Position numbers and translations under genes: made by a program. Source: Patescibacteria group bacterium (GTDB taxonomy: Bacteria; Patescibacteriota; Patescibacteriia; Patescibacteriales; UBA12465). From it: a stretch of 64,000 nt of DNA. This document shows, in pieces, positions 15,958 to 25,387 of the stretch (its first letter is position 1; every line of letters begins with the position of its first letter). The stretch spans positions 64,576 to 128,575 of the forward strand of contig JBAZZR010000001.1 in the NCBI GenBank assembly GCA_041658665.1, written 5' to 3'. The notes beneath the pieces were generated by a model that saw nothing but the letters and a program-made list of their open reading frames with translations, was not told the DNA's origin and ran no database searches.

Positions 15958-18504
15958 ATGTTTAGGGAAAATATCCAAAACGAGAAAGAACAAATGGCCG
16001 CTCGGACAAAAGAGGTTGAAGCGGATTTTCATGAGCAAAAAATGTCCCAGTTTTTAGAGAATCATGAGGTTATCTCTTATAAAGATGGAGATTGTGTTAT
16101 TGATGTGGAAAAGATAAAGAATTTTTCTGTTTCAAAAACTATTGATAAGCAATATTACTTTGATGGTGTAATACATTATATAACCAATGCTGATATTTTT
16201 GAATTTTTAAAAGATAAACAAGGCCGGGCTCAGACGGACGAAGAAACATCAGATAAATTTTTATTGTCGGACGAGGGGTCTTCTTTACCAAGGGCGGGCT
16301 TGGACGCTCGGGCAATAAGCGTTCAAGAGAATAAAAACCAAACAAGCCCGATAGTTGCTTTGCCTAAAAATATTTATGATGCTAAAAATGGCGATTTGGA
16401 TGAAGGGATATTAAAACCTTGGGAAGTAACCACTCATCCTGATTTTCGTCATAAGACAAAATTAACTGATGGCGCCGAAGCTTCTCTGGCGGATTTATTT
16501 TATCTTAATAAAATTAAAGAGGCCAAAATCCACCGTGATCAGACTGGTGCTTTGGTCTATTGGGATGGAGCAGATAATCAGTTTAAAAAATTTGTAGCCA
16601 CTCAGTCTGATAAAATTTTTCAGCGGCGGATAGTCTTCTCCGAGCAAGGTAAAAATTATTCTTTTCATGATAATACTAGCATGTTTATCAATAAATTTTT
16701 GCCGTTAGTTAAATCATTGAATCTTTTTGAGGCCGAAGATTTTCGCCGTGTTTCCGGGTCATCGACGGCTCAAACTTTATTAGCCCATGAAAGAAAAATT
16801 TTTGGTAGCCCTTATATTAATATTTCTAATAGCGCTAAGCATGCTCGTTATTATATTGGCCGGGATAAAATAGTCGGTACGGATCAAAAGATTAATGAGA
16901 ATATGAGAGCAGTAGAACTAGATCAAAATTTAGTCGGTGTCACTGAAGATTCTTTTGGTCGTCGTAAATTATTATATACTTTTCAGAAATTTAATGATCA
17001 AGAATATAAGAACTATGGCCTAGAAGATAAGGAAAGTTCTTATTGTCTGGTTTCGGGCAAAGAAATGAAAAAGCGGGTGAATGAATATCAAATATCAGAC
17101 TATTTGCCCCAACATAAAGACGAAAGCGCCGCTAATTATGCTAATCGTTTAGCTAATTTAAACGATGTTAAATTAACGAGCCGGACTTTTCGAGATCTGG
17201 CCTTGAAAGCGGAGACGCCGATTAATGATTTATCTTGGGCCGAGCAGCTTTTAATTACTAATTATGCTTTTGAAAGTAAAGATGAAAATAAATTATTAAA
17301 TTTTGTTAAGCAGTATAAAGTTGATGGCTTGCGATCGCTTATTACCGCCGAAGTAGATCAGAGGGCGGGAGACAAAATTATGGCTATTAGTGAAAAATTA
17401 CCATTTGCTCAAGCGAAGACGGTTTTTGAAAAGATTAGTGGCCTTAATCAGATGGCTACCCGTAAAGCAGATGAACTGGTCGACGTTTTTTTTGACGCCG
17501 AACGCGGCCAGGCGCCGCTCATGATGAGTGTTCATAAGGCGTTACTCAAAAAGACAAGCGAAATTGTCACGGCTTTTTATGAACACCTGAAGAAGGATGA
17601 TAATATTGAAGATTTATTGAGTGAGCTGGAGAAATGTAAGGCTGAAATGATTATGCTGGCTTCGGTCTTGAAAGAAGGAAAACTACAAGGAGAAAAAATT
17701 GATTTAGAAACGATTAGAGATTTAAATTTGGAAATAAAAGATTATGGTCAAGATATTGCCGAGCCGGATAAGAAGAATATTTTAAAGATTGCCCAGGCCA
17801 ATTGGAAAAATTTTGGTAATGACAAGATGGCCCAGGTAGTTTATGACGGTTTAGTCGAGACTTTGAACCAGGCTCAAGAGCAAAAGGCTTATATTTTAAA
17901 ATATAAAGATGAGGTGATCGGTTTTGTCCGTTTTGAGCGGACTAGCCACGGTACGGTTTATGCTGGGTCTCTTAATGTTTCCAAGGATTTGCGAGGTTTA
18001 TCGATTGGCAATGAGTTAATGGAGAAAGCGCTCCTGAAAGAAGGGGAACTTAATATTTTGGAAGCCTCAGCTTCTATTAAAATTCCGGCGGGCTGTAATT
18101 ATATTGAGAAAATTGGTTTTATCGCTGATGGCCTAATCGTAGATTATCACGGCACAGGTGAAAATTTACTGTCCATTAAATTAGATAAGGAAAAGAATAA
18201 AGAGTATAGTTTGCGTAATGAAGGAAAAGATAAGTTGCTTAGTTCAAGGGAATTGCAGGAAGCCATTAATGATTATAAACAATTGGATAATTTAATGGGC
18301 CGACCATATATTGTTTTACGTTTTGACTTGAATACGGAAATGGCCGAATATCAAGCAGCTTTGAGCCGACTTTTGCCCCAGGTTGATGATAATTTAAAAC
18401 CGCTAGAAGATAAGCAGGGGAAATATACTCTGACTCGTTATTTTTATGATAAGAATGAAGATCCGAAAGGCAATATTCGTTATTTGGTTTTTGAAAAAAA
18501 TTAA
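15958..18504 (+). CDS. large orphan protein (848 aa) with C-terminal GNAT acetyltransferase-like domain
   Basis: The GNAT-like segment VIGFVRFERTSHGTVYAGSLNVSKDLRGLSIGNELMEKAL lies near residues 650-700. No motif is recognised in the first ~600 aa. No TM or signal peptide. Confidence 0.65.
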   Translation: MFRENIQNEKEQMAARTKEVEADFHEQKMSQFLENHEVISYKDGDCVIDVEKIKNFSVSKTIDKQYYFDGVIHYITNADIFEFLKDKQGRAQTDEETSDKFLLSDEGSSLPRAGLDARAISVQENKNQTSPIVALPKNIYDAKNGDLDEGILKPWEVTTHPDFRHKTKLTDGAEASLADLFYLNKIKEAKIHRDQTGALVYWDGADNQFKKFVATQSDKIFQRRIVFSEQGKNYSFHDNTSMFINKFLPLVKSLNLFEAEDFRRVSGSSTAQTLLAHERKIFGSPYINISNSAKHARYYIGRDKIVGTDQKINENMRAVELDQNLVGVTEDSFGRRKLLYTFQKFNDQEYKNYGLEDKESSYCLVSGKEMKKRVNEYQISDYLPQHKDESAANYANRLANLNDVKLTSRTFRDLALKAETPINDLSWAEQLLITNYAFESKDENKLLNFVKQYKVDGLRSLITAEVDQRAGDKIMAISEKLPFAQAKTVFEKISGLNQMATRKADELVDVFFDAERGQAPLMMSVHKALLKKTSEIVTAFYEHLKKDDNIEDLLSELEKCKAEMIMLASVLKEGKLQGEKIDLETIRDLNLEIKDYGQDIAEPDKKNILKIAQANWKNFGNDKMAQVVYDGLVETLNQAQEQKAYILKYKDEVIGFVRFERTSHGTVYAGSLNVSKDLRGLSIGNELMEKALLKEGELNILEASASIKIPAGCNYIEKIGFIADGLIVDYHGTGENLLSIKLDKEKNKEYSLRNEGKDKLLSSRELQEAINDYKQLDNLMGRPYIVLRFDLNTEMAEYQAALSRLLPQVDDNLKPLEDKQGKYTLTRYFYDKNEDPKGNIRYLVFEKN

Positions 18505-19328
18505 TTAGTGTCACTTATGTTTCCTTCTTTAGCTCTTGTTTCGGCCGGAGCTTTTGTTTGTTGAGCTTTAATAGTGCTGGCCAAATTTTCCCAAATATAT
18601 TCGAATAGTAGTTTATTCATTTGATAAATATTTTTATCTTCGATGACAATAGCCATTTTGTTATCTGACGAAACCACTTGATATGAGACTTTATTATCAT
18701 AGATTTGGACACCGCTACTAAAGTTATAGAATTCCGGAGCGAGAAAGCGAAATTCGGTAATTAAACTGTTAAAATTTTTGAGAAATTGGCGATTGAAAGA
18801 AGTATCAGCGATGATAATCTTTTTTTTAATGGCAGTCTTTTCGCGTTTCTTAGAATAGGCGTCGTTAATATCTTTGATATTTTTTTCTACCGCTTCAATA
18901 TCGGCAAAAGTATAAATGGTCGTTCGACTAGCCAAAGTGTCATTGAGACTTTTTTCAATACCCTCCTCTCCTTCATAAAATTTTACTCCCGGCTTATTGC
19001 TAATTAAACTATAAGCCGAAACTAGATCGGGCAGGGCACTAATAAATTCTTTTTTGTGTTTAATGGCGTCTTTTTCTTTTTGATCGGCAATCGTTTCGAG
19101 GCCGGATGGGTGTTCAGCCGAAAAGATAGTAATACCTTTAACTTCCTCGGTTTTAGATACTAGATTAAGCTTAATTAATTCATCCAAGCCTTTATAAGCG
19201 ACCCCCCGGGGTCTTTTTATTTTTTTGGCGATATTACTGGCTTTATCCGGACCCTGGTTTAGGAGACAGTCCAGGATTTCAGCCTGAACCTTGGATAAAC
19301 CGAGATTATAGAGGGTTTTTTCAAACAT
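18501..19328 (-). CDS. TrmB-family transcriptional regulator
   Basis: N-terminal wHTH LGLSKVQAEILDCLLNQGPDKASNIAKKIKRPRGVAYKGLDELIKLNLV. Its 3' end overlaps the convergent 848-aa gene by 4 nt. Confidence 0.7.
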   Translation of the reverse strand: MFEKTLYNLGLSKVQAEILDCLLNQGPDKASNIAKKIKRPRGVAYKGLDELIKLNLVSKTEEVKGITIFSAEHPSGLETIADQKEKDAIKHKKEFISALPDLVSAYSLISNKPGVKFYEGEEGIEKSLNDTLASRTTIYTFADIEAVEKNIKDINDAYSKKREKTAIKKKIIIADTSFNRQFLKNFNSLITEFRFLAPEFYNFSSGVQIYDNKVSYQVVSSDNKMAIVIEDKNIYQMNKLLFEYIWENLASTIKAQQTKAPAETRAKEGNISDTN

Positions 19329-19570: not shown

Positions 19571-19599
19571 TTGACAATAATCTAAAACAATGCTAAACT
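19571..19599 (+). promoter_or_regulatory. sigma70 promoter driving the island RNA
   Basis: TTGACA (19571-19576), a 17-nt spacer and TAAACT (19594-19599). Predicted start near 19606. Confidence 0.65.
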
Positions 19600-19605
19600 T
19601 AAGGT

Positions 19606-20400
19606 ATCGAAAATGAGAAAGGAAAGAGACGGGCAAAACAAGTACATTACATTCAAATAAAATAATGGAAGGAGAGAGTCATTATTAATCACGATACTAT
19701 TACTTCTATAACAAGGGTACTAGGCGGATTGAGCTTTCTCATTCTATATAGAGACAGATTTTTCCGCCCAGTACCCTTTTTGGTCAAAAAACGGAGCGGA
19801 TAGTCCTGAAGAGGAGAGAGGTTTAGCCGCTGCCTTAGTGCCCACAGCCTAAGGCGGAACTAAATAGTAAGAATGGTTATTAGGAATAGAAATATTAATG
19901 GTTAGCGCCACCCCATGTTGCTAGCCAGAGTTCCCGCCGGGCCATTTAACGAACTCCCCTTCATAACTATCCGCTTCAAGCGGAAACCGAAGCGACTACG
20001 GGATAGTTGCCCCAATTATTTAGGGAATAAATAACAGTTAAACTAATTTGTCAATTTTGGGAGATTAAATGGACACATAAGCTTTAGAAATAAAGTGGAG
20101 AGGGTTCATCTCCTGAGATTAACAAAAGTTTGACAGTTTGCTTCCGGATTAAATCCGGAATCAGGCGCCAAGTGAGTCAGGGCCAAGAAGCGTCGCAAAC
20201 CGCTTCAAGGTCGAGACGATCTTAGTACGGCGTGGCTCAGTTATCCGCCAGCTGGCGGATGAGCAAGCTCCCGGGACAGCACTAACGCCACCGTCTTCTT
20301 ACGAGGAGATCGGCTGAGCCCTAAACCTTGAACAAGCTTAGGCCCAGAAATTTCCTCGGAAAAATATAAGTTTGAGAGGGAAGAGTTCTTTAAATTATTT
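19606..20400 (+). ncRNA. candidate large structured non-coding RNA (~0.8 kb, unclassified)
   Basis: No ORF of 60 aa or more on either strand in the supplied track. Local GC by hand count is 35/60, 38/60 and 30/60 for the lines starting 20161, 20221 and 20281, against an AT-rich background. There are many verified hairpins (19715-19776, 19832-19855, 19973-19993, 20142-20160, 20187-20206, 20243-20260). The 3' boundary is uncertain. Confidence 0.6.
19715..19781 (+). terminator. terminator-like or attenuator hairpin inside the island RNA leader
   Basis: GGGTACTAGGCGGA ... TCCGCCCAGTACCC (14 bp, one mismatch) followed by TTTTT. It could end a ~175-nt sRNA or act as an attenuator. Confidence 0.4.
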
Positions 20401-20422
20401 CACAACAAAAAAGGAGTTCCGC

Positions 20423-20650
20423 GTGAGTAAAGTAAGCGCGGGAAGACATATGAGTGATATTCAATTAGCATTAATCAATGCGGGTTTAGTTAGTTCGCAG
20501 AAAATTAATGAAATCAATCGCCAGAAGGCGATTGATACAGAGTTTGTTAGAACCGCTAAAAAAGCGGTTCCCGGAGCCGGACGGAAAATCTGGCAAAAGT
20601 ACGCCGACCTGAAAAGGCGCGCTTCGAAAAATTTACAGTTTATCTATTAA
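20423..20650 (+). CDS. small basic protein (~75 aa), orphan
   Basis: AAGGAG at 20411-20416, 6 nt before the in-frame GTG at 20423; an ATG at 20450 is an alternative start. Lys/Arg-rich sequence ...RKIWQKYADLKRRASKNL. Confidence 0.5.
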   Translation: MSKVSAGRHMSDIQLALINAGLVSSQKINEINRQKAIDTEFVRTAKKAVPGAGRKIWQKYADLKRRASKNLQFIY

Positions 20651-20865
20651 ACTGTAAAAAAAATTTCTAAAAAAAGTTTCTAAAAACGCCGATATGCGGC
20701 ACGATTCCTAAGTTTCCGGCTTACCTCCAAGGTATCAAAGGGCTGTTTAGAAGGAATCAAAAATTTTAAATTAGTTTAGCTTATTCTGATTACAAAAAAT
20801 AAGCAGGCCATCCTACCGGACCGCCGAGGCTATCACTACGCCTGAAGTGTCCACCAAAGTTTAAA

Positions 20866-20943
20866 GAGCAGTGTCGTTCAAACATTGCTCTCCCTCCCGG
20901 GATGTGCGTCTCGGCTGATGAGTCGAAAATGACGAAAGGGAAG
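20866..20943 (+). ncRNA. type III hammerhead ribozyme, copy 1, with a 5'-adjacent hairpin
   Basis: Core: UCCCU-C (C17 at 20896). Stem I is CCGGGA/UCUCGG with loop UGUGCG. CUGAUGA at 20915-20921. Stem II is GUC-GAAAAU-GAC. GAAA at 20934-20937. Stem III is GGGA pairing with UCCC. Predicted cleavage falls between 20896 and 20897. The upstream hairpin is 20866-20890. Confidence 0.85.
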
Positions 20944-20986
20944 AACATTTACAACTAAATAGACAGTAATTTCATTTTTTGACTGA

Positions 20987-21048
20987 TTTATTTTAGTTAT
21001 TATTTTTAAAGTTTTAAAAAAGACTTTAGGGATAATAACTAAAATAAA
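20987..21048 (+). repeat. conserved AT-rich long hairpin (copy 1) between the ribozyme and the downstream start codon
   Basis: Arms TTTATTTTAGTTATTAT / ATAATAACTAAAATAAA form 17 perfect bp. The homologous copy at 24167-24225 carries compensatory changes. Confidence 0.7.
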
Positions 21049-21060
21049 AAGGAATATAAA

Positions 21061-21918
21061 ATGAAAGAAAAATATTATTTAATTAGCGATGATCTTGTTT
21101 TGTCTGAGCAAGAATTCGTTAATAAGTACAAAGTGTCTCGCGCGACTTACTATCGTGCCAAAAAGTCCGGCTATTTCATGCTGGAATATCATAAGAGGGA
21201 GATTGAGATAAATAGTGTTTTTGTTGAAAATAATTTGGCGTTAATATTTGAGTGCGCCAAGATGGCGTCGTATATTGTAGCGAGGAGATACTGGGGTCCT
21301 CTTTATTGGAGAGAAATTCAAAAAAAGTTTGGCATCACAACCGTCGACTTCCGTGATGAGGCGTTTTTGAGAATTGTTGAAAGGAGTGCGCATATTGCTG
21401 AAAAAACAGCTGGTGCTAGCGATAGCTCAAGACGTTGTTATATGCTAAAAGCCGCAAAATACGCGGTGCAGGAGTTTATTTCATTAAAACTATTTCGTTA
21501 TAGTGATAGGAATAGTCGTTTTGACGAAGAAAATAACGAAGAGGATGATAGGAGCGGTAGGATCTTTTCCTATGATCCAACCAATGAAATACATGCGCGC
21601 GTTGACACAATGGGTTCTAGAACTGAAAAAATTATCCGCTTATTAAACGAAAATGAGCGGAAAATATTTTTGGCCATCTGCGCTGGCTGGGATAGGGAGG
21701 AAATAGCGTTTCTAGATAACATAGATAACATTACGTCCACTGAAATATTAGATCGGATTAAAAAAATAATTAAAAAAATCCGGCTATTGTATGGAATTAG
21801 TGAGGGAAGAGTTGATTGGTATCCGCCTAAAACGGATAAAAATCACTCAGAAGAATTGCGTCAACTTCGTAAGAAAGTAGCGCAATATCTAAATGAAAAT
21901 TCTGTTCACTTAGTGTAA
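21061..21918 (+). CDS. divergent sigma-70-like / HTH DNA-binding protein
   Basis: N-terminal HTH (KVSRATYYRAKKSG). The C-terminal segment LNENERKIFLAICAGWDREEIA...ILDRIKKIIKKIR resembles sigma-70 region 4. FRDEAFLRIVERS resembles region 2. No database check was possible. Confidence 0.45.
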   Translation: MKEKYYLISDDLVLSEQEFVNKYKVSRATYYRAKKSGYFMLEYHKREIEINSVFVENNLALIFECAKMASYIVARRYWGPLYWREIQKKFGITTVDFRDEAFLRIVERSAHIAEKTAGASDSSRRCYMLKAAKYAVQEFISLKLFRYSDRNSRFDEENNEEDDRSGRIFSYDPTNEIHARVDTMGSRTEKIIRLLNENERKIFLAICAGWDREEIAFLDNIDNITSTEILDRIKKIIKKIRLLYGISEGRVDWYPPKTDKNHSEELRQLRKKVAQYLNENSVHLV

Positions 21919-21953
21919 AAATTAATCAATAAAAATAAAAAGGAGTCACAATC

Positions 21954-22706
21954 ATGGTTACGAAGGCGAAAGCAATTTTATTGTCAACGGAATTTATTAA
22001 TGGTTTAACTCAATTTATTCCGCAATTTTGTAGTGGTGAAGTAGTTTGGGATAATTATCACGCTTCCGCACTCTGCGGCGGGACATTAATCCCGGTTATA
22101 TTTAAATTCCGGGCGGGCGAGAAACCATCTACAGATCAGGCCTATAATGTAATAGTTTCCTCCGCGCGCGGCGACCAAGCTCGCCGGGAAAATCGAGCGA
22201 CGATTGATCACTGGGAATTGAAGTTTTATCCAGTGGGAGTCGATGAAGCAAAAAATAAATTTTATTTTCTAAGCTGTAAATTTGACGAAGAAATAGAATT
22301 TGAAAATCGAAAAGTCCCTGAAAATATAATCCGTTTCAAGGGGGTCAGTATGAAGGGAGTCATTTTTTCCCAACCGATTGGAGTTGAACCTAAATATGAT
22401 ATCCAATTAGTAACAACTGAAGTCGTATTTGACAGTTCGGTTATGCTACGTCTTGAAGGAGCGCAAACAAAAATTTTGCGTGGGCATAAGATAATAGAAA
22501 AAAAAGATAAATTTTTATCAATAGTCATCTACGATCATCGTAAAGTTTATGATGTCGTGGCTCAATGTTGTCATGAACGAAAAATTCTCAGTAATGGTCG
22601 AGTATTTGACTATTATAAACTCCACAATTTTATCGATGACGGACGTGGAGTTAATCATATTCTCACCGCTGACGGTATTTCAGCGGTAGAAGAAACGGTA
22701 GTTTAG
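21954..22706 (+). CDS. orphan protein (250 aa)
   Basis: AAGGAG ribosome-binding site 7 nt upstream. No TM, signal peptide or recognisable motif. Confidence 0.6.
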   Translation: MVTKAKAILLSTEFINGLTQFIPQFCSGEVVWDNYHASALCGGTLIPVIFKFRAGEKPSTDQAYNVIVSSARGDQARRENRATIDHWELKFYPVGVDEAKNKFYFLSCKFDEEIEFENRKVPENIIRFKGVSMKGVIFSQPIGVEPKYDIQLVTTEVVFDSSVMLRLEGAQTKILRGHKIIEKKDKFLSIVIYDHRKVYDVVAQCCHERKILSNGRVFDYYKLHNFIDDGRGVNHILTADGISAVEETVV

Positions 22707-22717
22707 TGCTAAGTTCT

Positions 22718-22800
22718 GCAGATTAGTTTGTTCAACTAATCTGCCTCTTTTCAAGGGCAGTAAAAATTTTAGTGCCCTTGAAATCGGATTCTTTAATAAC
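22718..22800 (+). terminator. double-hairpin terminator-like module, copy A
   Basis: Hairpin 1 is GCAGATTAGT/ACTAATCTGC followed by CTCTTTTC. Hairpin 2 is TCAAGGGCA/TGCCCTTGA with a loop GTAAAAATTTTAG. The homologous module is at 25404-25470. Confidence 0.55.
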
Positions 22801-22827
22801 GTGAGTCAGAAATAATCTTTATTTCAC

Positions 22828-22885
22828 AATATTGGACAGTACTTTGAATATATTTTAATAAATATTTAGAGTACTGCCCAATATT
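22828..22885 (+). promoter_or_regulatory. internal promoter bracketed by 16-nt inverted repeats (candidate operator)
   Basis: TTGAAT (22844-22849), a 17-nt spacer and TAGAGT (22867-22872). It is flanked by AATATTGGACAGTACT (22828-22843) and AGTACTGCCCAATATT (22870-22885), which match at 15 of 16 positions as an inverted repeat. Confidence 0.45.
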
Positions 22886-22971
22886 AGGCAGGGTCAGCCA
22901 ATGTCCAGTCGTAGTCCGTAAAAAAATAATTAGGACCAGACAAATGACAACGGCAAAAACAAGGAGTAGAA

Positions 22972-23550
22972 ATGAGAACTTATTTTTGGAATCGCGGTAG
23001 CTTAATCCCCGGTATATCCGTCACTAAAGATGATAAACTAGGCTTTATAGTTTATCTCGGTGAGGATGGGCGAGGTAGACGTTATGAAAAAGTTGGTCTA
23101 CTGAGAAATAACCCGGCGGAAATTATAGATGGGAAAATTTTTGAAGCTCATCCGGTTAGAATTACCGTTGGTAAAGGTACGGACAAAGAAAGAAATTTTT
23201 TTGTTCTCGCCAAGTCGATCGACAACGCCGATCCCCGTGTTATTGTCCATGTAAATACGGAATGTGTTTACACCCGCGACACTGTAGGTAAATGGACAAT
23301 GAAAGTCGGGGCCCCAGAAACCATAGTTAAGGCCTATGGCGCTCACGGAATTGCTGGCCGGATTGGTAATTGGGATGACGGGTTGATATTAATGAAACCA
23401 GGAGATGTTTTGGAGATTCGCCCGGAAGGTGGTCATAAGGTAGATTCCTACGCGCTATTTTTCGATGCGGAAGGAATCTTAACATCCATGGTTTGGAAAG
23501 ATTACGAAGCTATGCAAGCTATTTCCGGCGGGGAGGTAGATTGGTTATGA
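22972..23550 (+). CDS. orphan protein (192 aa)
   Basis: AAGGAG ribosome-binding site upstream. The stop codon overlaps the next start (ATGA at 23547-23550). Confidence 0.6.
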   Translation: MRTYFWNRGSLIPGISVTKDDKLGFIVYLGEDGRGRRYEKVGLLRNNPAEIIDGKIFEAHPVRITVGKGTDKERNFFVLAKSIDNADPRVIVHVNTECVYTRDTVGKWTMKVGAPETIVKAYGAHGIAGRIGNWDDGLILMKPGDVLEIRPEGGHKVDSYALFFDAEGILTSMVWKDYEAMQAISGGEVDWL

Positions 23551-24008
23551 AAACATTAAAATGTTTTACTCTGTCTGGGAAAGACGTTTCTCCCGTGATT
23601 AAAATGGAAAAAGGAAAAATTTCCTGTTGGGGTGGGCCCGGTCAACCCGACATTCCTTTCGTTTATGCTCTAAATCCTGAAGTAAACGAATATAGTATTG
23701 CTAATATCGGTAAAAAAACTAATCAATTTTTTTTACAAATTGGTGAAGGAGAAGTTGACCAGCATCAAACCCTAGTTTTTGTCCATGAATATTTTAATGG
23801 GTCTGGTGCAAAAAGATGGCCCGGTTTCCACATTGATTGGAATAATGCCGGACAAGTGGAAATTTTGATTCAGACCCAGCGCCACTATGGGAGCGGTTCC
23901 GATACTTGGTCGTTAATCATCGCTCCACACGGCTGGGTAGAAAATATTGCCGCTCAATTTATTGATGAGCGAGATTATCCGAGTCAGATTATTTCCTACA
24001 AATTGTAA
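23547..24008 (+). CDS. orphan protein (153 aa), translationally coupled to the upstream ORF
   Basis: ATG at 23547 preceded by GGAGG at 23532-23536. The ORF-track start at 23493 lies inside the upstream gene and has no ribosome-binding site. Confidence 0.55.
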   Translation: MKTLKCFTLSGKDVSPVIKMEKGKISCWGGPGQPDIPFVYALNPEVNEYSIANIGKKTNQFFLQIGEGEVDQHQTLVFVHEYFNGSGAKRWPGFHIDWNNAGQVEILIQTQRHYGSGSDTWSLIIAPHGWVENIAAQFIDERDYPSQIISYKL

Positions 24009-24060
24009 TTTTAGAGTAGGGTCGGCTGTATAAAATCTGGGGGCACTTAAGTTCAAAATT

Positions 24061-24139
24061 GAGCAGCTTTTGTTCAAAAGCTGCTCTCCCTCCCGAGATG
24101 CGTGTCTCGGCTGATGAGTCCGAAAGGACGAAAGGGAAG
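24061..24139 (+). ncRNA. type III hammerhead ribozyme, copy 2, with a 5'-adjacent hairpin
   Basis: Upstream hairpin GAGCAGCTTTT/AAAAGCTGCTC (24061-24086). UCCCU-C (C17 at 24092). Stem I is CCGAGA/UCUCGG. CUGAUGA at 24111-24117. Stem II is GUCC-GAAA-GGAC. GAAA at 24130-24133. Stem III is GGGA. Predicted cleavage falls between 24092 and 24093. Confidence 0.88.
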
Positions 24140-24166
24140 GACCTTAAAAATTAAATAAGACTATGA

Positions 24167-24225
24167 TTATTTAGTTACTATTTTTGAAGTTTTAAAAAAA
24201 GACTTTAGAGATAGTAACTAAATAA
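24167..24225 (+). repeat. conserved AT-rich long hairpin (copy 2)
   Basis: Arms TTATTTAGTTACTAT / ATAGTAACTAAATAA form 15 perfect bp. The T-to-C change on one arm is matched by an A-to-G change on the other, relative to copy 1. Confidence 0.7.
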
Positions 24226-24274
24226 TAAAAATCAAAAAATCCGCGGTCCCGACGTATTCGGGCAAGGAGAAAAA

Positions 24275-25387
24275 ATGGAACATATCAATAGTTTTGCTCC
24301 CGATGGAAGCATAACAGGATTAACTTACCGCCAAGCTTGTGCGGTAATATTTATCGCTACGGGGAATATGGAATTTCCTCCAAATCCTTTTGATAAGGAA
24401 GATATTAAAAGGATCGGAGGGACTTTTGATGGAAATAACGGTAATTACCCAAATCTTTATCCCGTCGAGGGCGGCGGTATAGAGTATGTTACCATTAGTG
24501 GCCGGAGTATTAAAATTACTCTGGACAATGATGGTCAATGGCGGCTGGACTGTTCCTCATGGTGGAGCAGTTCAAAAATATTTCAAGCGACAATCCTCGA
24601 TGCGCTAGAAGTAATGGCTTCGTACAAACTAGAGGACAACATTCCATTATCATATTTTGATAGGAATGTTAATTTTGAGGAAATTTTCGGACGAGTTTCC
24701 TTGGGAAATTTTGGTCAACCAGAGTTGGACGATCTGGCTTACATCTTATTTGACGGGAAGCTACCTGATGGCTACACCAGATTTCCACTAAAAATATCCT
24801 ATGGGGATATGGACATCGATGCGGACTATGAGTCCGTTTGGTATGGCGGAAAGAATTCTGGTGGTTGGGTCGGCTTTAAGGACTATGCCGATAAGCTAAA
24901 AGAGGGTGAAACAAAAGGGGTTAAATGGGAATTTTGGCAAGTAGGACGCCATTATTTCAACCAGTCTTCATTTAGTCATAATTATGACAGATGTGAAGAC
25001 ACTGGAGATTGGTACCTCTGTATTAATGGTGGTGTAAAAGTTACCGATGCGGAAGTTTCCGATAATCAAGAAGTTGTGAAAATACTTCAATTCGCGGGAA
25101 TTCCGACCAAGAAAAAAGATTTTATGGAGGCGTGGAATTTGGATATAACTGGAGAGTCTATCCCGACGCCATATTCCCAATATTATGGCGGAGAAAATTC
25201 CGGCGGAAACGTCGGCATTTCGATTGAGACCCGCTATGAAGGGCCAGAAGGAAAAGTGATTGAGAGTCGATCATTTAATGAGTCGACCTTTGATCACGAT
25301 GTGGATAAAATACGACCCGCTATCCATATCGTACTTCGTTCTGGTGCGCCCGTGATTGACATGTCGCGTATGTGGGCAGTATTGTAA
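24275..25387 (+). CDS. orphan protein (370 aa) with an internal duplicated motif
   Basis: AAGGAGA ribosome-binding site. Internal repeat YGGKNSGGWVGF...FNQSSFSHNYD versus YGGENSGGNVGI...FNESTFDHDVD. No TM or signal peptide. Confidence 0.6.
   Translation: MEHINSFAPDGSITGLTYRQACAVIFIATGNMEFPPNPFDKEDIKRIGGTFDGNNGNYPNLYPVEGGGIEYVTISGRSIKITLDNDGQWRLDCSSWWSSSKIFQATILDALEVMASYKLEDNIPLSYFDRNVNFEEIFGRVSLGNFGQPELDDLAYILFDGKLPDGYTRFPLKISYGDMDIDADYESVWYGGKNSGGWVGFKDYADKLKEGETKGVKWEFWQVGRHYFNQSSFSHNYDRCEDTGDWYLCINGGVKVTDAEVSDNQEVVKILQFAGIPTKKKDFMEAWNLDITGESIPTPYSQYYGGENSGGNVGISIETRYEGPEGKVIESRSFNESTFDHDVDKIRPAIHIVLRSGAPVIDMSRMWAVL

What the first reader, a model, noticed from the sequence alone, without database searches (positions are those of the whole stretch)
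20866..20943. Type III hammerhead self-cleaving ribozyme (copy 1) upstream of the sigma-like gene
All invariant hammerhead core nucleotides are present in the correct order. Reading 5' to 3':
- The stem III 5' strand UCCC, then U16.1 and C17 (20896).
- Stem I CCGGGA-UGUGCG-UCUCGG.
- C3-A9, CUGAUGA (20915-20921).
- Stem II GUC-GAAAAU-GAC.
- G12-A14 plus A15.1, GAAA.
- The stem III 3' strand GGGA.

Stems I and II are closed by loops and stem III is open, which is type III topology. A conserved 9-bp hairpin abuts the 5' strand of stem III. Cleavage would leave the upstream RNA ending in hairpin-UCCCUC with a 2',3'-cyclic phosphate. The downstream mRNA would begin with a 5'-OH and the compact ribozyme fold.
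Basis: partly seen in the sequence, partly recalled or inferred. Interest (0 to 1): 0.75.

Follow-up and report, generated by a model that had tools for sequence, protein, structure and literature searches.

The report
Type III hammerhead ribozymes punctuating an operon
The flagged 51-nt element is a genuine type III hammerhead self-cleaving ribozyme motif, one of two in this Patescibacteria window; it is a new example of a known habit of bacteria and phages of placing hammerheads between genes, not a new kind of RNA.

Summary
Confirmed. Window 20891-20941 (+) carries every invariant hammerhead core base in type III order, with C17 at 20896. A second copy lies at 24087-24137. A generic type III descriptor finds only these two sites in the window, against 0.01 hits per shuffled window. 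Eighty-one distinct relatives of the same architecture come from Patescibacteria (candidate phyla radiation, CPR) genomes, metagenomes and viral contigs. They show covariation in stems I and III and in one pair of stem II. Rfam's Hammerhead_3 model scores the two copies only 17-19 bits (threshold 48.5). Two relatives pass that threshold, and a positional ortholog scores 38 bits.

Both copies sit in co-directional intergenic regions. Each is preceded by an abutting 9-11 bp hairpin and followed by a covarying 28-29 bp AU-rich RNA hairpin and a ribosome-binding site. Copy 1 precedes a divergent ECF-like sigma gene. In sister genomes the gene blocks between hammerheads differ, and homology breaks at the hammerhead modules.

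Most likely the ribozymes cut one long transcript into separate mRNAs with defined, protected ends, like the synthetic RiboJ insulator. This matches the clustered prophage hammerheads reported in 2011. Cleavage itself is untested. Verdict: new member of a known kind, modest interest. A conserved, structured leader RNA upstream (about 19606-20395) has no Rfam match and is more novel.

The parts
19571..19599 (+). Promoter-like site (TTGACA, 17 nt, TAAACT with a TG extension), divergent from the TrmB-type regulator gene. It is the candidate start of the long + strand transcript that runs through both hammerheads.
   Evidence: Consensus scan only. No terminator-like site was found on the + strand between it and the start codon at 21061. 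The region is conserved in L002, L005 and L162.
19606..20395 (+). Conserved structured non-coding leader RNA. The same transcription unit is inferred, not shown.
   Evidence: 85% identical to the sister genome L011, more than the flanking genes. The 3' domain has 91 predicted pairs, 18 of them with compensatory changes across 4 genomes. The terminal hairpin is conserved in 5 genomes. No Rfam match.
20372..20650 (+). Small conserved ORF (about 75-92 aa; the start is uncertain) that lies just upstream of a hammerhead in the window, L005 and L162.
   Evidence: 72% amino-acid identity to L005 1866-2117. Homologs P0003-P0005. In L162 it is followed by a hammerhead.
20865..20891 (+). Pre-ribozyme hairpin, copy 1. 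It has 9-10 bp, a loop containing GUUCAAA, and abuts the 5' strand of stem III. After cleavage it would sit 5-6 nt from the new 3' end.
   Evidence: Sequence and fold. Conserved in the orthologs. Abutting hairpins are enriched in the family.
20891..20941 (+). Type III hammerhead, copy 1. The cleavage site is between C20896 and C20897.
20987..21048 (+). AU-rich RNA hairpin of 29 bp between the ribozyme and the ribosome-binding site of the sigma-like gene.
   Evidence: z-score -11 against shuffles. 29 pairs, 9 with compensatory changes and two invariant U.G pairs, which fit only the + strand RNA.
21061..21918 (+). First gene after copy 1: a divergent ECF-like sigma factor with an extra N-terminal helix-turn-helix domain (285 aa).
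   Evidence: No Pfam hit for the protein itself. The family profile hits ECF sigma factors.
21954..24008 (+). Three further genes of the block between the two ribozymes (250, 192 and 171 aa), with no recognisable families.
24061..24086 (+). Pre-ribozyme hairpin, copy 2. It has 11 bp with GUUC at the tip.
24087..24137 (+). Type III hammerhead, copy 2. The cleavage site is between C24092 and C24093. Its minimum-energy fold is the hammerhead fold, apart from one extra pair in stem I.
24166..24226 (+). AU-rich RNA hairpin of 28 bp, second copy.
   Evidence: z-score -9.3. Covariation.
24248..24268 (+). Short hairpin CCCGACGUAUUCGGG joined to the ribosome-binding site AAGGAG. This unit recurs in front of several cassette genes in sister genomes.
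24275..25387 (+). Gene after copy 2 (370 aa), with no homolog other than itself.

Best explanation
Both elements are functional type III hammerhead ribozymes embedded in one long + strand transcript of a Patescibacteria chromosome.

While the RNA is made, each ribozyme folds and cuts after C17 (20896 and 24092). The cuts would separate three pieces:
1. The structured leader plus the small ORF.
2. The four-gene block that starts with the ECF-like sigma gene.
3. The next gene.

Each upstream product would end in a stable hairpin followed by UCCCUC with a 2',3'-cyclic phosphate. Each downstream mRNA would start with a 5'-OH inside the compact stem I / stem II fold. That fold is followed by a 28-29 bp hairpin and the ribosome-binding site. 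The effect is a defined 5' end that does not depend on the neighbouring genes, plus protected RNA ends. This is the natural counterpart of the synthetic RiboJ insulator.

Because the modules are repeated, they also mark the points where gene blocks have been exchanged between related genomes.

Shown: the motif, its covariation, its intergenic co-directional placement, the flanking hairpins, and the cassette boundaries.
Inferred: transcription through the sites, cleavage in the cell, and the effects on stability and translation.
For: Motif and rarity:
- The core and helices are complete.
- Only 2 descriptor hits occur in 128 kb of both strands, against 0.01 expected.
- The covariance model gives 75-82 bits, against 13 bits for the next best site.

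Covariation:
- All 6 stem I pairs change on both sides among 14 CPR copies.
- In 81 distinct relatives 90.8% of cells are paired, against 34-46% in the slid controls. There are 411 double-change cells, against 123 in shuffles.
- All 7 stem III pairs, 5 of 6 stem I pairs and 1 of 4 stem II pairs show changes on both sides.
- Substitutions between the two window copies and the L011 ortholog keep pairing, as G.U wobbles or compensated pairs.

Genomic context of the family:
- 28% of family members lie inside long open frames, against 74% of random positions.
- The median distances are 79 nt after a same-strand stop codon and 160 nt before a same-strand start codon.

This locus:
- There is an upstream promoter-like site and no terminator-like site before copy 1.
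- The RNA hairpins on either side are conserved.
- Gene content between hammerheads differs among the window, L011 and L005, and homology breaks at the hairpin/ribozyme module.

Literature:
- Clustered hammerheads flanking genes of changing identity were described earlier. They cleave in ~2 kb polycistronic RNAs in vitro and in E. coli (PMC3088659).
- RiboJ is the sTRSV hammerhead plus a hairpin placed before the ribosome-binding site, and it raises expression (PMC6206723).
Against: - No cleavage or transcript data exist for this organism.
- Rfam Hammerhead_3 scores only 17 and 18.9 bits, against a threshold of 48.5.
- In copy 1 the hammerhead fold is predicted 3.2 kcal/mol less stable than a competing fold, and both stems I and II contain a G.U pair.
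- The promoter assignment is a consensus match only. Promoter-like matches also occur between the ribozyme and the gene.
- The long downstream hairpin is not a general feature of the family. The excess of downstream structure is weak (p = 0.03).
- The biological role of bacterial hammerheads is unresolved in the literature (PMC6765202).
Confidence: 0.8

Rival explanations
1. The ribozymes mainly end or discard upstream transcripts, acting as 3'-end makers or uncouplers. The downstream genes would then be expressed from their own promoters located between the ribozyme and the gene.
For: - A promoter-like TTGACT, 16 nt, TATTTT lies at 20979-21006 and is also present in L011.
- The hairpin abutting the 5' side looks like a 3'-end protecting element for the upstream RNA.
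Against: - A start site from that promoter would fall inside the 5' arm of the 29-bp hairpin. That hairpin is conserved as an RNA structure, with compensatory changes and invariant U.G pairs.
- The -35 match is absent from copy 2 and from L002.
- AT-rich spacers give many chance promoter matches: 27 found against 15.7 expected.
Confidence: 0.15
2. The two same-sense ribozymes excise the 3,196-nt RNA 20897-24092. Its 5'-OH and 2',3'-cyclic phosphate ends are then joined, either by hammerhead reversal or by an RtcB-type ligase. The product would be a circular four-gene mRNA.
For: - Both copies have identical stem III strands. The two ends of the excised RNA could therefore rebuild a complete hammerhead.
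- Perreault et al. raised this possibility for clustered hammerheads.
Against: - Perreault et al. looked for circular or spliced products and found none.
- In the two-copy locus L123 the two stem III sequences are not cross-compatible, so this is not a family property.
- The identical stem III in the window is explained simply by recent duplication.
Confidence: 0.05
3. The copies are inactive relics of a repeated element. They persist only because they are recent duplicates or serve as recombination sites, with no RNA function.
For: - Copy 1 has weakened stems and a competing fold.
- Some related copies carry a U4-to-C core change: L004 4714 and L010 489.
- Cassette boundaries coincide with the modules.
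Against: - The core is invariant in both window copies and in the L005, L011, L002 and L162 copies, while stems change only in pair-preserving ways.
- The wider family shows strong covariation in stems I and III.
Confidence: 0.07
4. The match to the hammerhead consensus is a chance occurrence.
For: Rfam's curated threshold is not met.
Against: - 0.01 hits expected per window, against 2 observed.
- The two copies are 84% identical over 86 nt.
- Orthologous copies sit at the same position in four other genomes.
Confidence: 0.005

Closest known systems
Classical type III hammerheads of plant satellite RNAs (sTRSV type; Rfam RF00008)
   Same: - Same topology and core.
- 6-bp stem I closed by a UGYGYR hexaloop. 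From my own memory, sTRSV has UGUGCU.
- 4-bp stem II GUCC/GGAC closed by a purine-rich tetraloop.
- The family search pattern also pulled two viral-collection records of 366 and 377 nt, L020 and L024. Their sizes are typical of virusoids; that is my own knowledge, not checked here.
   Different: - It is encoded in a bacterial DNA chromosome, not a circular RNA replicon.
- Stem III reads CUC/GAAAG rather than the GUC/GAAAC the Rfam model prefers. This probably explains the low Rfam score, but I did not test it.
- The function would be mRNA processing rather than resolving rolling-circle multimers.
Clustered hammerheads flanking genes in prophages and bacterial genomes (Perreault et al. 2011, PMC3088659)
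   Same: - Several same-sense hammerheads flank single genes or short gene blocks whose identity varies.
- Processing of long transcripts was proposed.
- The arrangement was shown to cleave in vitro, and in E. coli for Agrobacterium.
   Different: - The host here is a Patescibacteria (CPR) bacterium.
- No integrase or phage hallmark gene lies nearby; the neighbours are housekeeping genes.
- The array sits behind a conserved regulator, promoter, structured leader and small ORF.
- I found no paper linking hammerheads with Patescibacteria in the held library.
RiboJ synthetic insulator (sTRSV hammerhead plus 23-nt hairpin before the RBS; PMC6206723)
   Same: Same order of parts: type III hammerhead, then a hairpin, then the ribosome-binding site. 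In RiboJ, cleavage removes variable upstream RNA and the remaining structured 5' end raises expression.
   Different: - This is natural, not engineered.
- The hairpin is much longer (28-29 bp) and lies about 45 nt (copy 1) or about 28 nt (copy 2) after the ribozyme.
- There is an additional hairpin on the 5' side.
- The effect on expression is untested.
RNase III intercistronic processing hairpins of phage T7 early mRNA (own knowledge)
   Same: Long, nearly perfect RNA hairpins sit between genes of a polycistronic transcript. The 28-29 bp hairpins here are long enough to be RNase III substrates.
   Different: No evidence here for RNase III cleavage. The T7 sites have internal loops.
Retrozymes and viroid-like circular RNAs with paired hammerheads (PMC7229834 and related work)
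   Same: Two same-sense type III hammerheads bracket a segment that would be released with ligatable ends.
   Different: - The bracketed segment is 3.2 kb and codes for four proteins.
- No reverse transcriptase or repeat structure is present.
- Circularisation is pure speculation here.

Membership tests
Hammerhead ribozyme, type III | Invariant core: C3 U4 G5 A6 N7 G8 A9, G12 A13 A14, the A15.1-U16.1 pair, and a non-G base at position 17. | tested here: met
   Copy 1: CUGAUGA 20915-20921, GAA 20934-20936, A20937-U20895, C20896. Copy 2: CUGAUGA 24111-24117, GAA 24130-24132, A24133-U24091, C24092.
Hammerhead ribozyme, type III | Three helices radiating from the core, supported by covariation. 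| tested here: met
   81 distinct relatives: 90.8% of cells paired, against 34-46% in slid controls. Changes on both sides occur in 7 of 7 stem III pairs, 5 of 6 stem I pairs and 1 of 4 stem II pairs. In the 14 CPR copies all 6 stem I pairs covary. Caveat: stem II's first 3 pairs, loop 1 and the A14-U21 pair of stem I were partly fixed by the search pattern.
Hammerhead ribozyme, type III | Type III permutation: stems I and II closed by loops, stem III open. | tested here: met
   Loop 1 at 20903-20908 and loop 2 at 20926-20929. The two stem III strands are the 5' and 3' ends of the motif.
Hammerhead ribozyme, type III | Loop 1 / loop 2 tertiary contact that gives fast cleavage at cellular Mg2+. 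| tested here: inconclusive
   Loop 2 is NAAA with A39 and A41 invariant, and it was not constrained by the search. Loop 1 is UGYGYR, but that was imposed by the search pattern. The 3D contact cannot be tested with these tools.
Hammerhead ribozyme, type III | Score at or above Rfam RF00008's gathering threshold (48.5 bits). | tested here: not met
   17.0 bits (E 0.68) for copy 1 and 18.9 bits (E 0.16) for copy 2. Relatives with the same architecture pass: L126 at 51.4 and L068 at 48.7. The positional ortholog L162 scores 38.4 bits, E 2e-5. This is a curators' score cut-off, not a biochemical criterion.
Hammerhead ribozyme, type III | Mg2+-dependent self-cleavage 3' of position 17, giving 2',3'-cyclic phosphate and 5'-OH ends. 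| not testable with these tools
   Needs in vitro transcription or end-specific RNA-seq.
Clustered intergenic hammerheads that process polycistronic RNA (Perreault 2011 type) | Two or more same-sense hammerheads in co-directional intergenic regions, flanking gene blocks of changing content. | tested here: met
   Window: 2 copies, 3,196 nt apart. L005: 3 copies. L011, L004 and L010: 2 copies each. Gene content differs between the window, L011 and L005.
Clustered intergenic hammerheads that process polycistronic RNA (Perreault 2011 type) | Prophage or integrase neighbourhood. | tested here: not met
   Neighbours are a TrmB-type regulator, a GNAT-domain protein, FtsK, an ECF sigma factor, a Mur ligase and glycogen-metabolism genes. 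No PHROG or PADLOC hits for the island proteins. Cargo in the sister loci (STIV B116-like, radical SAM, MoxR AAA ATPase) suggests mobile or conflict genes.

The most novel reading that the evidence does not exclude
In a subset of Patescibacteria, a fixed expression platform drives an array of exchangeable gene cassettes. The platform is a TrmB-type regulator, a divergent promoter, a structured leader RNA of about 0.75 kb and a small ORF.

The cassettes seen include an ECF-like sigma factor, a radical SAM protein, a B116-like protein and AAA/MoxR ATPases. Each cassette would be delimited by a standard RNA punctuation module: a hairpin with a GUUCAA loop, a type III hammerhead, sometimes a long hairpin, and sometimes a hairpin joined to the ribosome-binding site.

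In this reading the hammerheads act both as natural insulators and as cassette-exchange points. The leader's invariant UUGAAC loop would pair with the GUUCAA loops to couple leader and ribozyme modules. Alternatively, the RNA between the hammerheads would be circularised.
Probability: 0.12. Interest if true: 0.7.

Novelty: new member of a known kind. Interest (0 to 1): 0.33.

Why it matters
It extends confirmed-by-covariation hammerheads to Patescibacteria, a lineage with tiny genomes. In this window Rfam at its gathering thresholds reported only a tRNA, so such annotation would miss them.

The locus offers a compact natural test of a question that has been open since 2011: what do bacterial hammerheads do? 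It holds two ribozymes, defined flanking hairpins and a sigma-factor gene directly downstream. Several sister genomes carry the same modules around different genes.

If the RiboJ-like reading holds, nature arrived at the same insulator design as synthetic biology. The practical value is modest: better annotation, and candidate compact insulator parts.

Tried and rejected
- **Rfam at gathering thresholds.** Only a tRNA was found in the window. In E-value mode the two copies give weak Hammerhead_3 hits. I therefore relied on a descriptor search, a custom covariance model and covariation.
- **BLAST of the copy 2 module against 50,697 phage genomes.** No match.
- **PHROG, PADLOC and Pfam on the island proteins.** Nothing found.
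- **AlphaFold model of the 285-aa protein.** pLDDT was 45, too poor for a fold search. I used a profile of distant homologs instead, which points to ECF sigma factors.
- **Is a downstream hairpin general in the family?** Only a weak excess of structure was seen (p = 0.03), so I treat the 28-29 bp hairpin as specific to this CPR subgroup.
- **Is the circular-RNA reading a general property?** It fails in L123, where the two stem III sequences are incompatible.
- **Is GTTCAAA enriched in the window?** No: 8 found against 12.8 expected.
- **Leader loop / GUUCAA kissing idea.** It cannot be tested, because every copy is invariant.
- **Loci carrying the small-ORF homolog P0004 (L156, L157).** They have no hammerhead, so the small ORF and the ribozyme are not obligately linked.
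- **Weinberg et al. 2015 (RAGATH paper).** It could not be read.

Full report
**Observation**

- A 9-bp hairpin, AGAGCAGUG / CAUUGCUCU, spans 20865-20891.
- Stem III 5' strand is UCCCU (20891-20895).
- C17 is at 20896.
- Stem I is CCGGGA / UCUCGG, with one G.U pair, closed by UGUGCG.
- CUGAUGA lies at 20915-20921.
- Stem II is GUC(G)/(U)GAC around an A-rich loop.
- GAA follows, then A15.1 and GGGA (20937-20941).

A second copy lies 3,196 nt downstream at 24087-24137, with C17 at 24092. It is 84% identical over 86 nt.

Differences between the two copies keep pairing. In stem I a G.U becomes A-U. The fourth pair of stem II changes from G.U to C-G.

A generic type III descriptor requires U16.1, a non-G base at position 17, stem I of at least 4 bp, CUGANGA, stem II of at least 3 bp, GAAA, and stem III of at least 4 bp. 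It finds only these two sites on both strands of the 64-kb window. One hundred dinucleotide shuffles give a mean of 0.01 hits.

**Is it a hammerhead?**

Rfam at its gathering thresholds reports only a tRNA in the window. In E-value mode Hammerhead_3 (RF00008) gives 17.0 and 18.9 bits, against a threshold of 48.5. I therefore looked for relatives.

A pattern fixing the core, stem II and stem III found 10 loci among species-representative genomes. At least six are labelled Patescibacteria lineages (Saccharibacteria, Parcubacteria, Shapirobacteria, Woesebacteria, Patescibacteria group). One locus holds three copies. Across these 14 copies all six stem I pairs change on both sides.

A covariance model built from them scores the window copies 75.5 and 82 bits. 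The next best site in the window scores 13 bits. The model also found further copies in L004, L009 and L010 that the pattern had missed.

A second pattern left stem I (apart from its loop-closing pair), stem III and the distal part of stem II free. Of 158 matches, 119 parse as complete type III hammerheads.

On 81 distinct sequences of 55 nt:
- 90.8% of cells are paired, against 34-46% when partners are slid.
- 411 cells have a change on both sides, against 123 in shuffles.
- Every stem III pair shows changes on both sides, and most take four or more standard pair types.
- Five of six stem I pairs do the same, as does the fourth stem II pair.

Two of these relatives pass Rfam's own threshold: L126 at 51.4 bits and L068 at 48.7 bits. 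The positional ortholog in a fifth genome, L162, scores 38.4 bits with E 2e-5. The low score of the window copies therefore looks like a property of the Rfam model rather than a defect of the motif. The model seems to prefer GUC/GAAAC in stem III, but I did not test that.

The architecture is a 6-bp stem I with a UGYGYR hexaloop and a 4-bp stem II with an NAAA loop. From my own memory this is the architecture of the classical satellite-RNA hammerheads; sTRSV has UGUGCU.

Copy 2 takes the hammerhead fold as its minimum-energy structure, apart from one extra pair in stem I. For copy 1 that fold is 3.2 kcal/mol above a competitor. Self-cleavage itself cannot be tested here.

**Where it sits**

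The window is from a Patescibacteria MAG. The proteins match 'WC863_00425' and 'WC863_00445' at 100% identity.

All long ORFs from 20372 to 50775 are on the + strand. A TrmB-type regulator gene lies on the - strand at 18501-19328, with a perfect divergent promoter. A + strand promoter-like site lies at 19571-19599. No terminator-like site follows it on the + strand before 21061.

The + strand order is:
1. A conserved non-coding leader, about 19606-20395.
2. A small conserved ORF, ending at 20650.
3. Hairpin plus hammerhead 1.
4. A 29-bp AU-rich hairpin, 20987-21048.
5. The ribosome-binding site and a 285-aa gene.
6. Three more genes with no recognisable family.
7. Hairpin plus hammerhead 2.
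8. A 28-bp hairpin, 24166-24226.
9. A short hairpin joined to the ribosome-binding site.
10. A 370-aa gene with no homolog other than itself.
11. ftsK.

The long hairpin has 29 predicted pairs. Nine show compensatory changes among four sequences, and two U.G pairs are invariant. These would be C.A mismatches on the other strand, so this is an RNA structure of the + strand.

The 285-aa protein has no Pfam hit of its own. An exhaustive HMMER search found 14 distant relatives besides itself. Four of the 15 family members match Sigma70_r2 and two match Sigma70_r4. The family profile hits ECF sigma factors in the PDB, with SigL at E 4.8e-4. 'Sigma-like' is therefore reasonable.

**Comparison with sister genomes**

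Four other genomes (L011, L005, L002, L162) share the platform elements: regulator, promoter and leader, followed by a hammerhead. The small ORF is confirmed in L005 and L162. What follows differs.
- L011: hammerhead, then a radical SAM protein, two unknown proteins and a B116-like protein, then a hammerhead, then the sigma-like gene.
- L005: three hammerheads bounding a B116-like protein, an AAA ATPase and a MoxR ATPase.

Homology between genomes switches partner inside the hairpin/hammerhead module. The modules therefore coincide with the cassette boundaries.

No integrase or phage hallmark gene is nearby. The island proteins have no PHROG or PADLOC hits.

**The family at large**

Among 117 parsed hammerheads:
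- Only 28% lie inside open frames of at least 100 codons, against 74% of random positions.
- The median position is 79 nt after a same-strand stop codon and 160 nt before a same-strand start codon.
- A hairpin of at least 9 bp directly abuts the stem III 5' strand in 32% of cases, against 5% of controls.
- Downstream structure is only weakly enriched.

**Mechanism**

This section is inference from the anatomy and from established hammerhead chemistry. RNA polymerase starting near 19606 would read through both modules. Each ribozyme folds as it emerges; stem I forms as soon as it has been transcribed. It then cuts after C17.

The upstream product ends in a stable hairpin plus UCCCUC with a 2',3'-cyclic phosphate. 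The downstream product starts with a 5'-OH buried in the stem I / stem II fold. The long hairpin follows, and it may act as a further stabiliser or as an RNase III site. Then comes the ribosome-binding site.

The outcome is separate mRNAs whose 5' ends do not depend on what lies upstream. This is what the synthetic RiboJ part does, and RiboJ raises expression (PMC6206723).

Perreault et al. 2011 described clustered hammerheads flanking genes of changing identity in prophages. They showed cleavage of ~2 kb polycistronic RNAs in vitro, and in E. coli for the Agrobacterium arrangement. They proposed this same processing role. They also considered circular or spliced products and did not detect them (PMC3088659). 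A 2019 review still lists the function as unresolved (PMC6765202).

**Rivals**

- The genes may have their own promoters downstream of the ribozyme. The best candidate would start transcription inside the conserved RNA hairpin and is not conserved in copy 2 or L002.
- The 3,196-nt RNA between the ribozymes could be circularised. The ends are compatible here, but not in another two-copy locus, and there is no positive evidence.
- The copies could be inactive relics. The core is invariant and the substitutions preserve pairing, which argues against this.
- Chance is excluded.

**Novelty and verdict**

This is a genuine hammerhead and a new member of a well-known class, in a known type of arrangement.

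What is new is modest:
- The host lineage. I found no paper in the held library that links hammerheads with Patescibacteria.
- The non-prophage chromosomal setting.
- The tidy RiboJ-like module.
- The fixed platform with a structured leader.

Interest is about 0.33.

The conserved leader RNA, and the recurrent AGUUCA / UUGAAC motifs noticed in passing, are more novel than the ribozyme itself and deserve their own follow-up.

Noticed in passing
window 19606-20395 (+), with the best conserved part at 20262-20400: A long non-coding leader between the divergent promoters and the small ORF. It is 85% identical to the sister genome L011, more than the flanking genes. Its 3' domain has 91 predicted pairs, 18 with compensatory changes in 4 genomes. 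A terminal hairpin of about 60 nt is conserved in 5 genomes. No Rfam family matches. It looks like an undescribed structured RNA.
   Followed up: partly
window 20857-20867, 20876-20882, 22718-22744, 24048-24057, 24072-24078; leader loop near 20330-20338: An AGUUCA/GUUCAA motif recurs just 5' of each pre-ribozyme hairpin, in that hairpin's loop, and in the loop of a hairpin after the 250-aa gene. The leader's terminal hairpin has an invariant loop CUUGAACAA whose UUGAAC is its exact complement, giving up to 8 bp with copy 2. All copies are invariant, so pairing cannot be tested by covariation. GTTCAAA is not enriched in the window overall.
   Followed up: partly
window 20987-21048 and 24166-24226 (+): AU-rich RNA hairpins of 28-29 bp lie between each ribozyme and the next start codon. 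They show compensatory changes and invariant U.G pairs. They are long enough to be RNase III substrates. They are present in L011, L002 and L162 but not after the L005 copies.
   Followed up: yes
window 24248-24268 (+); L005 2347-2366 and 3391-3410; L011 10872-10891: A short hairpin CCCGACGUAUUCGGG fused to the ribosome-binding site AAGGA recurs directly before the start codons of unrelated cassette genes in three genomes, like a shared translation-initiation part.
   Followed up: partly
L004 4714-4768 (+) and L010 489-544 (-): Two otherwise complete hammerhead copies read CCGAUGA instead of CUGAUGA (U4 to C), a change in an invariant core position. They may be weakened or dead copies, or tolerated variants.
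   Followed up: no
L045 887-975 (-) and L042 1624-1704 (-): RAGATH-10 RNAs (89 and 79 bits) lie a few hundred nucleotides from hammerheads of the abundant UCGCUC/CAUAGA subgroup found in many ERZ77xxxx metagenome assemblies.
   Followed up: no
L020 (366 nt) and L024 (377 nt), IMG/VR records: Two tiny viral-collection records carry hammerheads with the same stem I, loop and stem II architecture. From my own knowledge, their sizes fit plant virusoids such as those of velvet tobacco mottle virus and Solanum nodiflorum mottle virus. Their identity was not checked.
   Followed up: no
L156 and L157 (loci of the small-ORF homolog P0004): The small ORF also occurs behind a GIY-YIG gene, with a different leader and cargo (Csx3, bpMoxR, a VWA-domain protein). 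No hammerhead was detected there, so the small ORF and the ribozyme are separable.
   Followed up: partly
window 24275 versus the NCBI gene call (P0006, 339 aa): The database protein matches only 92% of my 370-aa ORF (339 aa), so the deposited gene call is presumably about 31 codons shorter at the N-terminus. The ATG at 24275 has a strong AAGGAG ribosome-binding site 6 nt upstream, preceded by the conserved hairpin. The deposited start may therefore be too far downstream.
   Followed up: no
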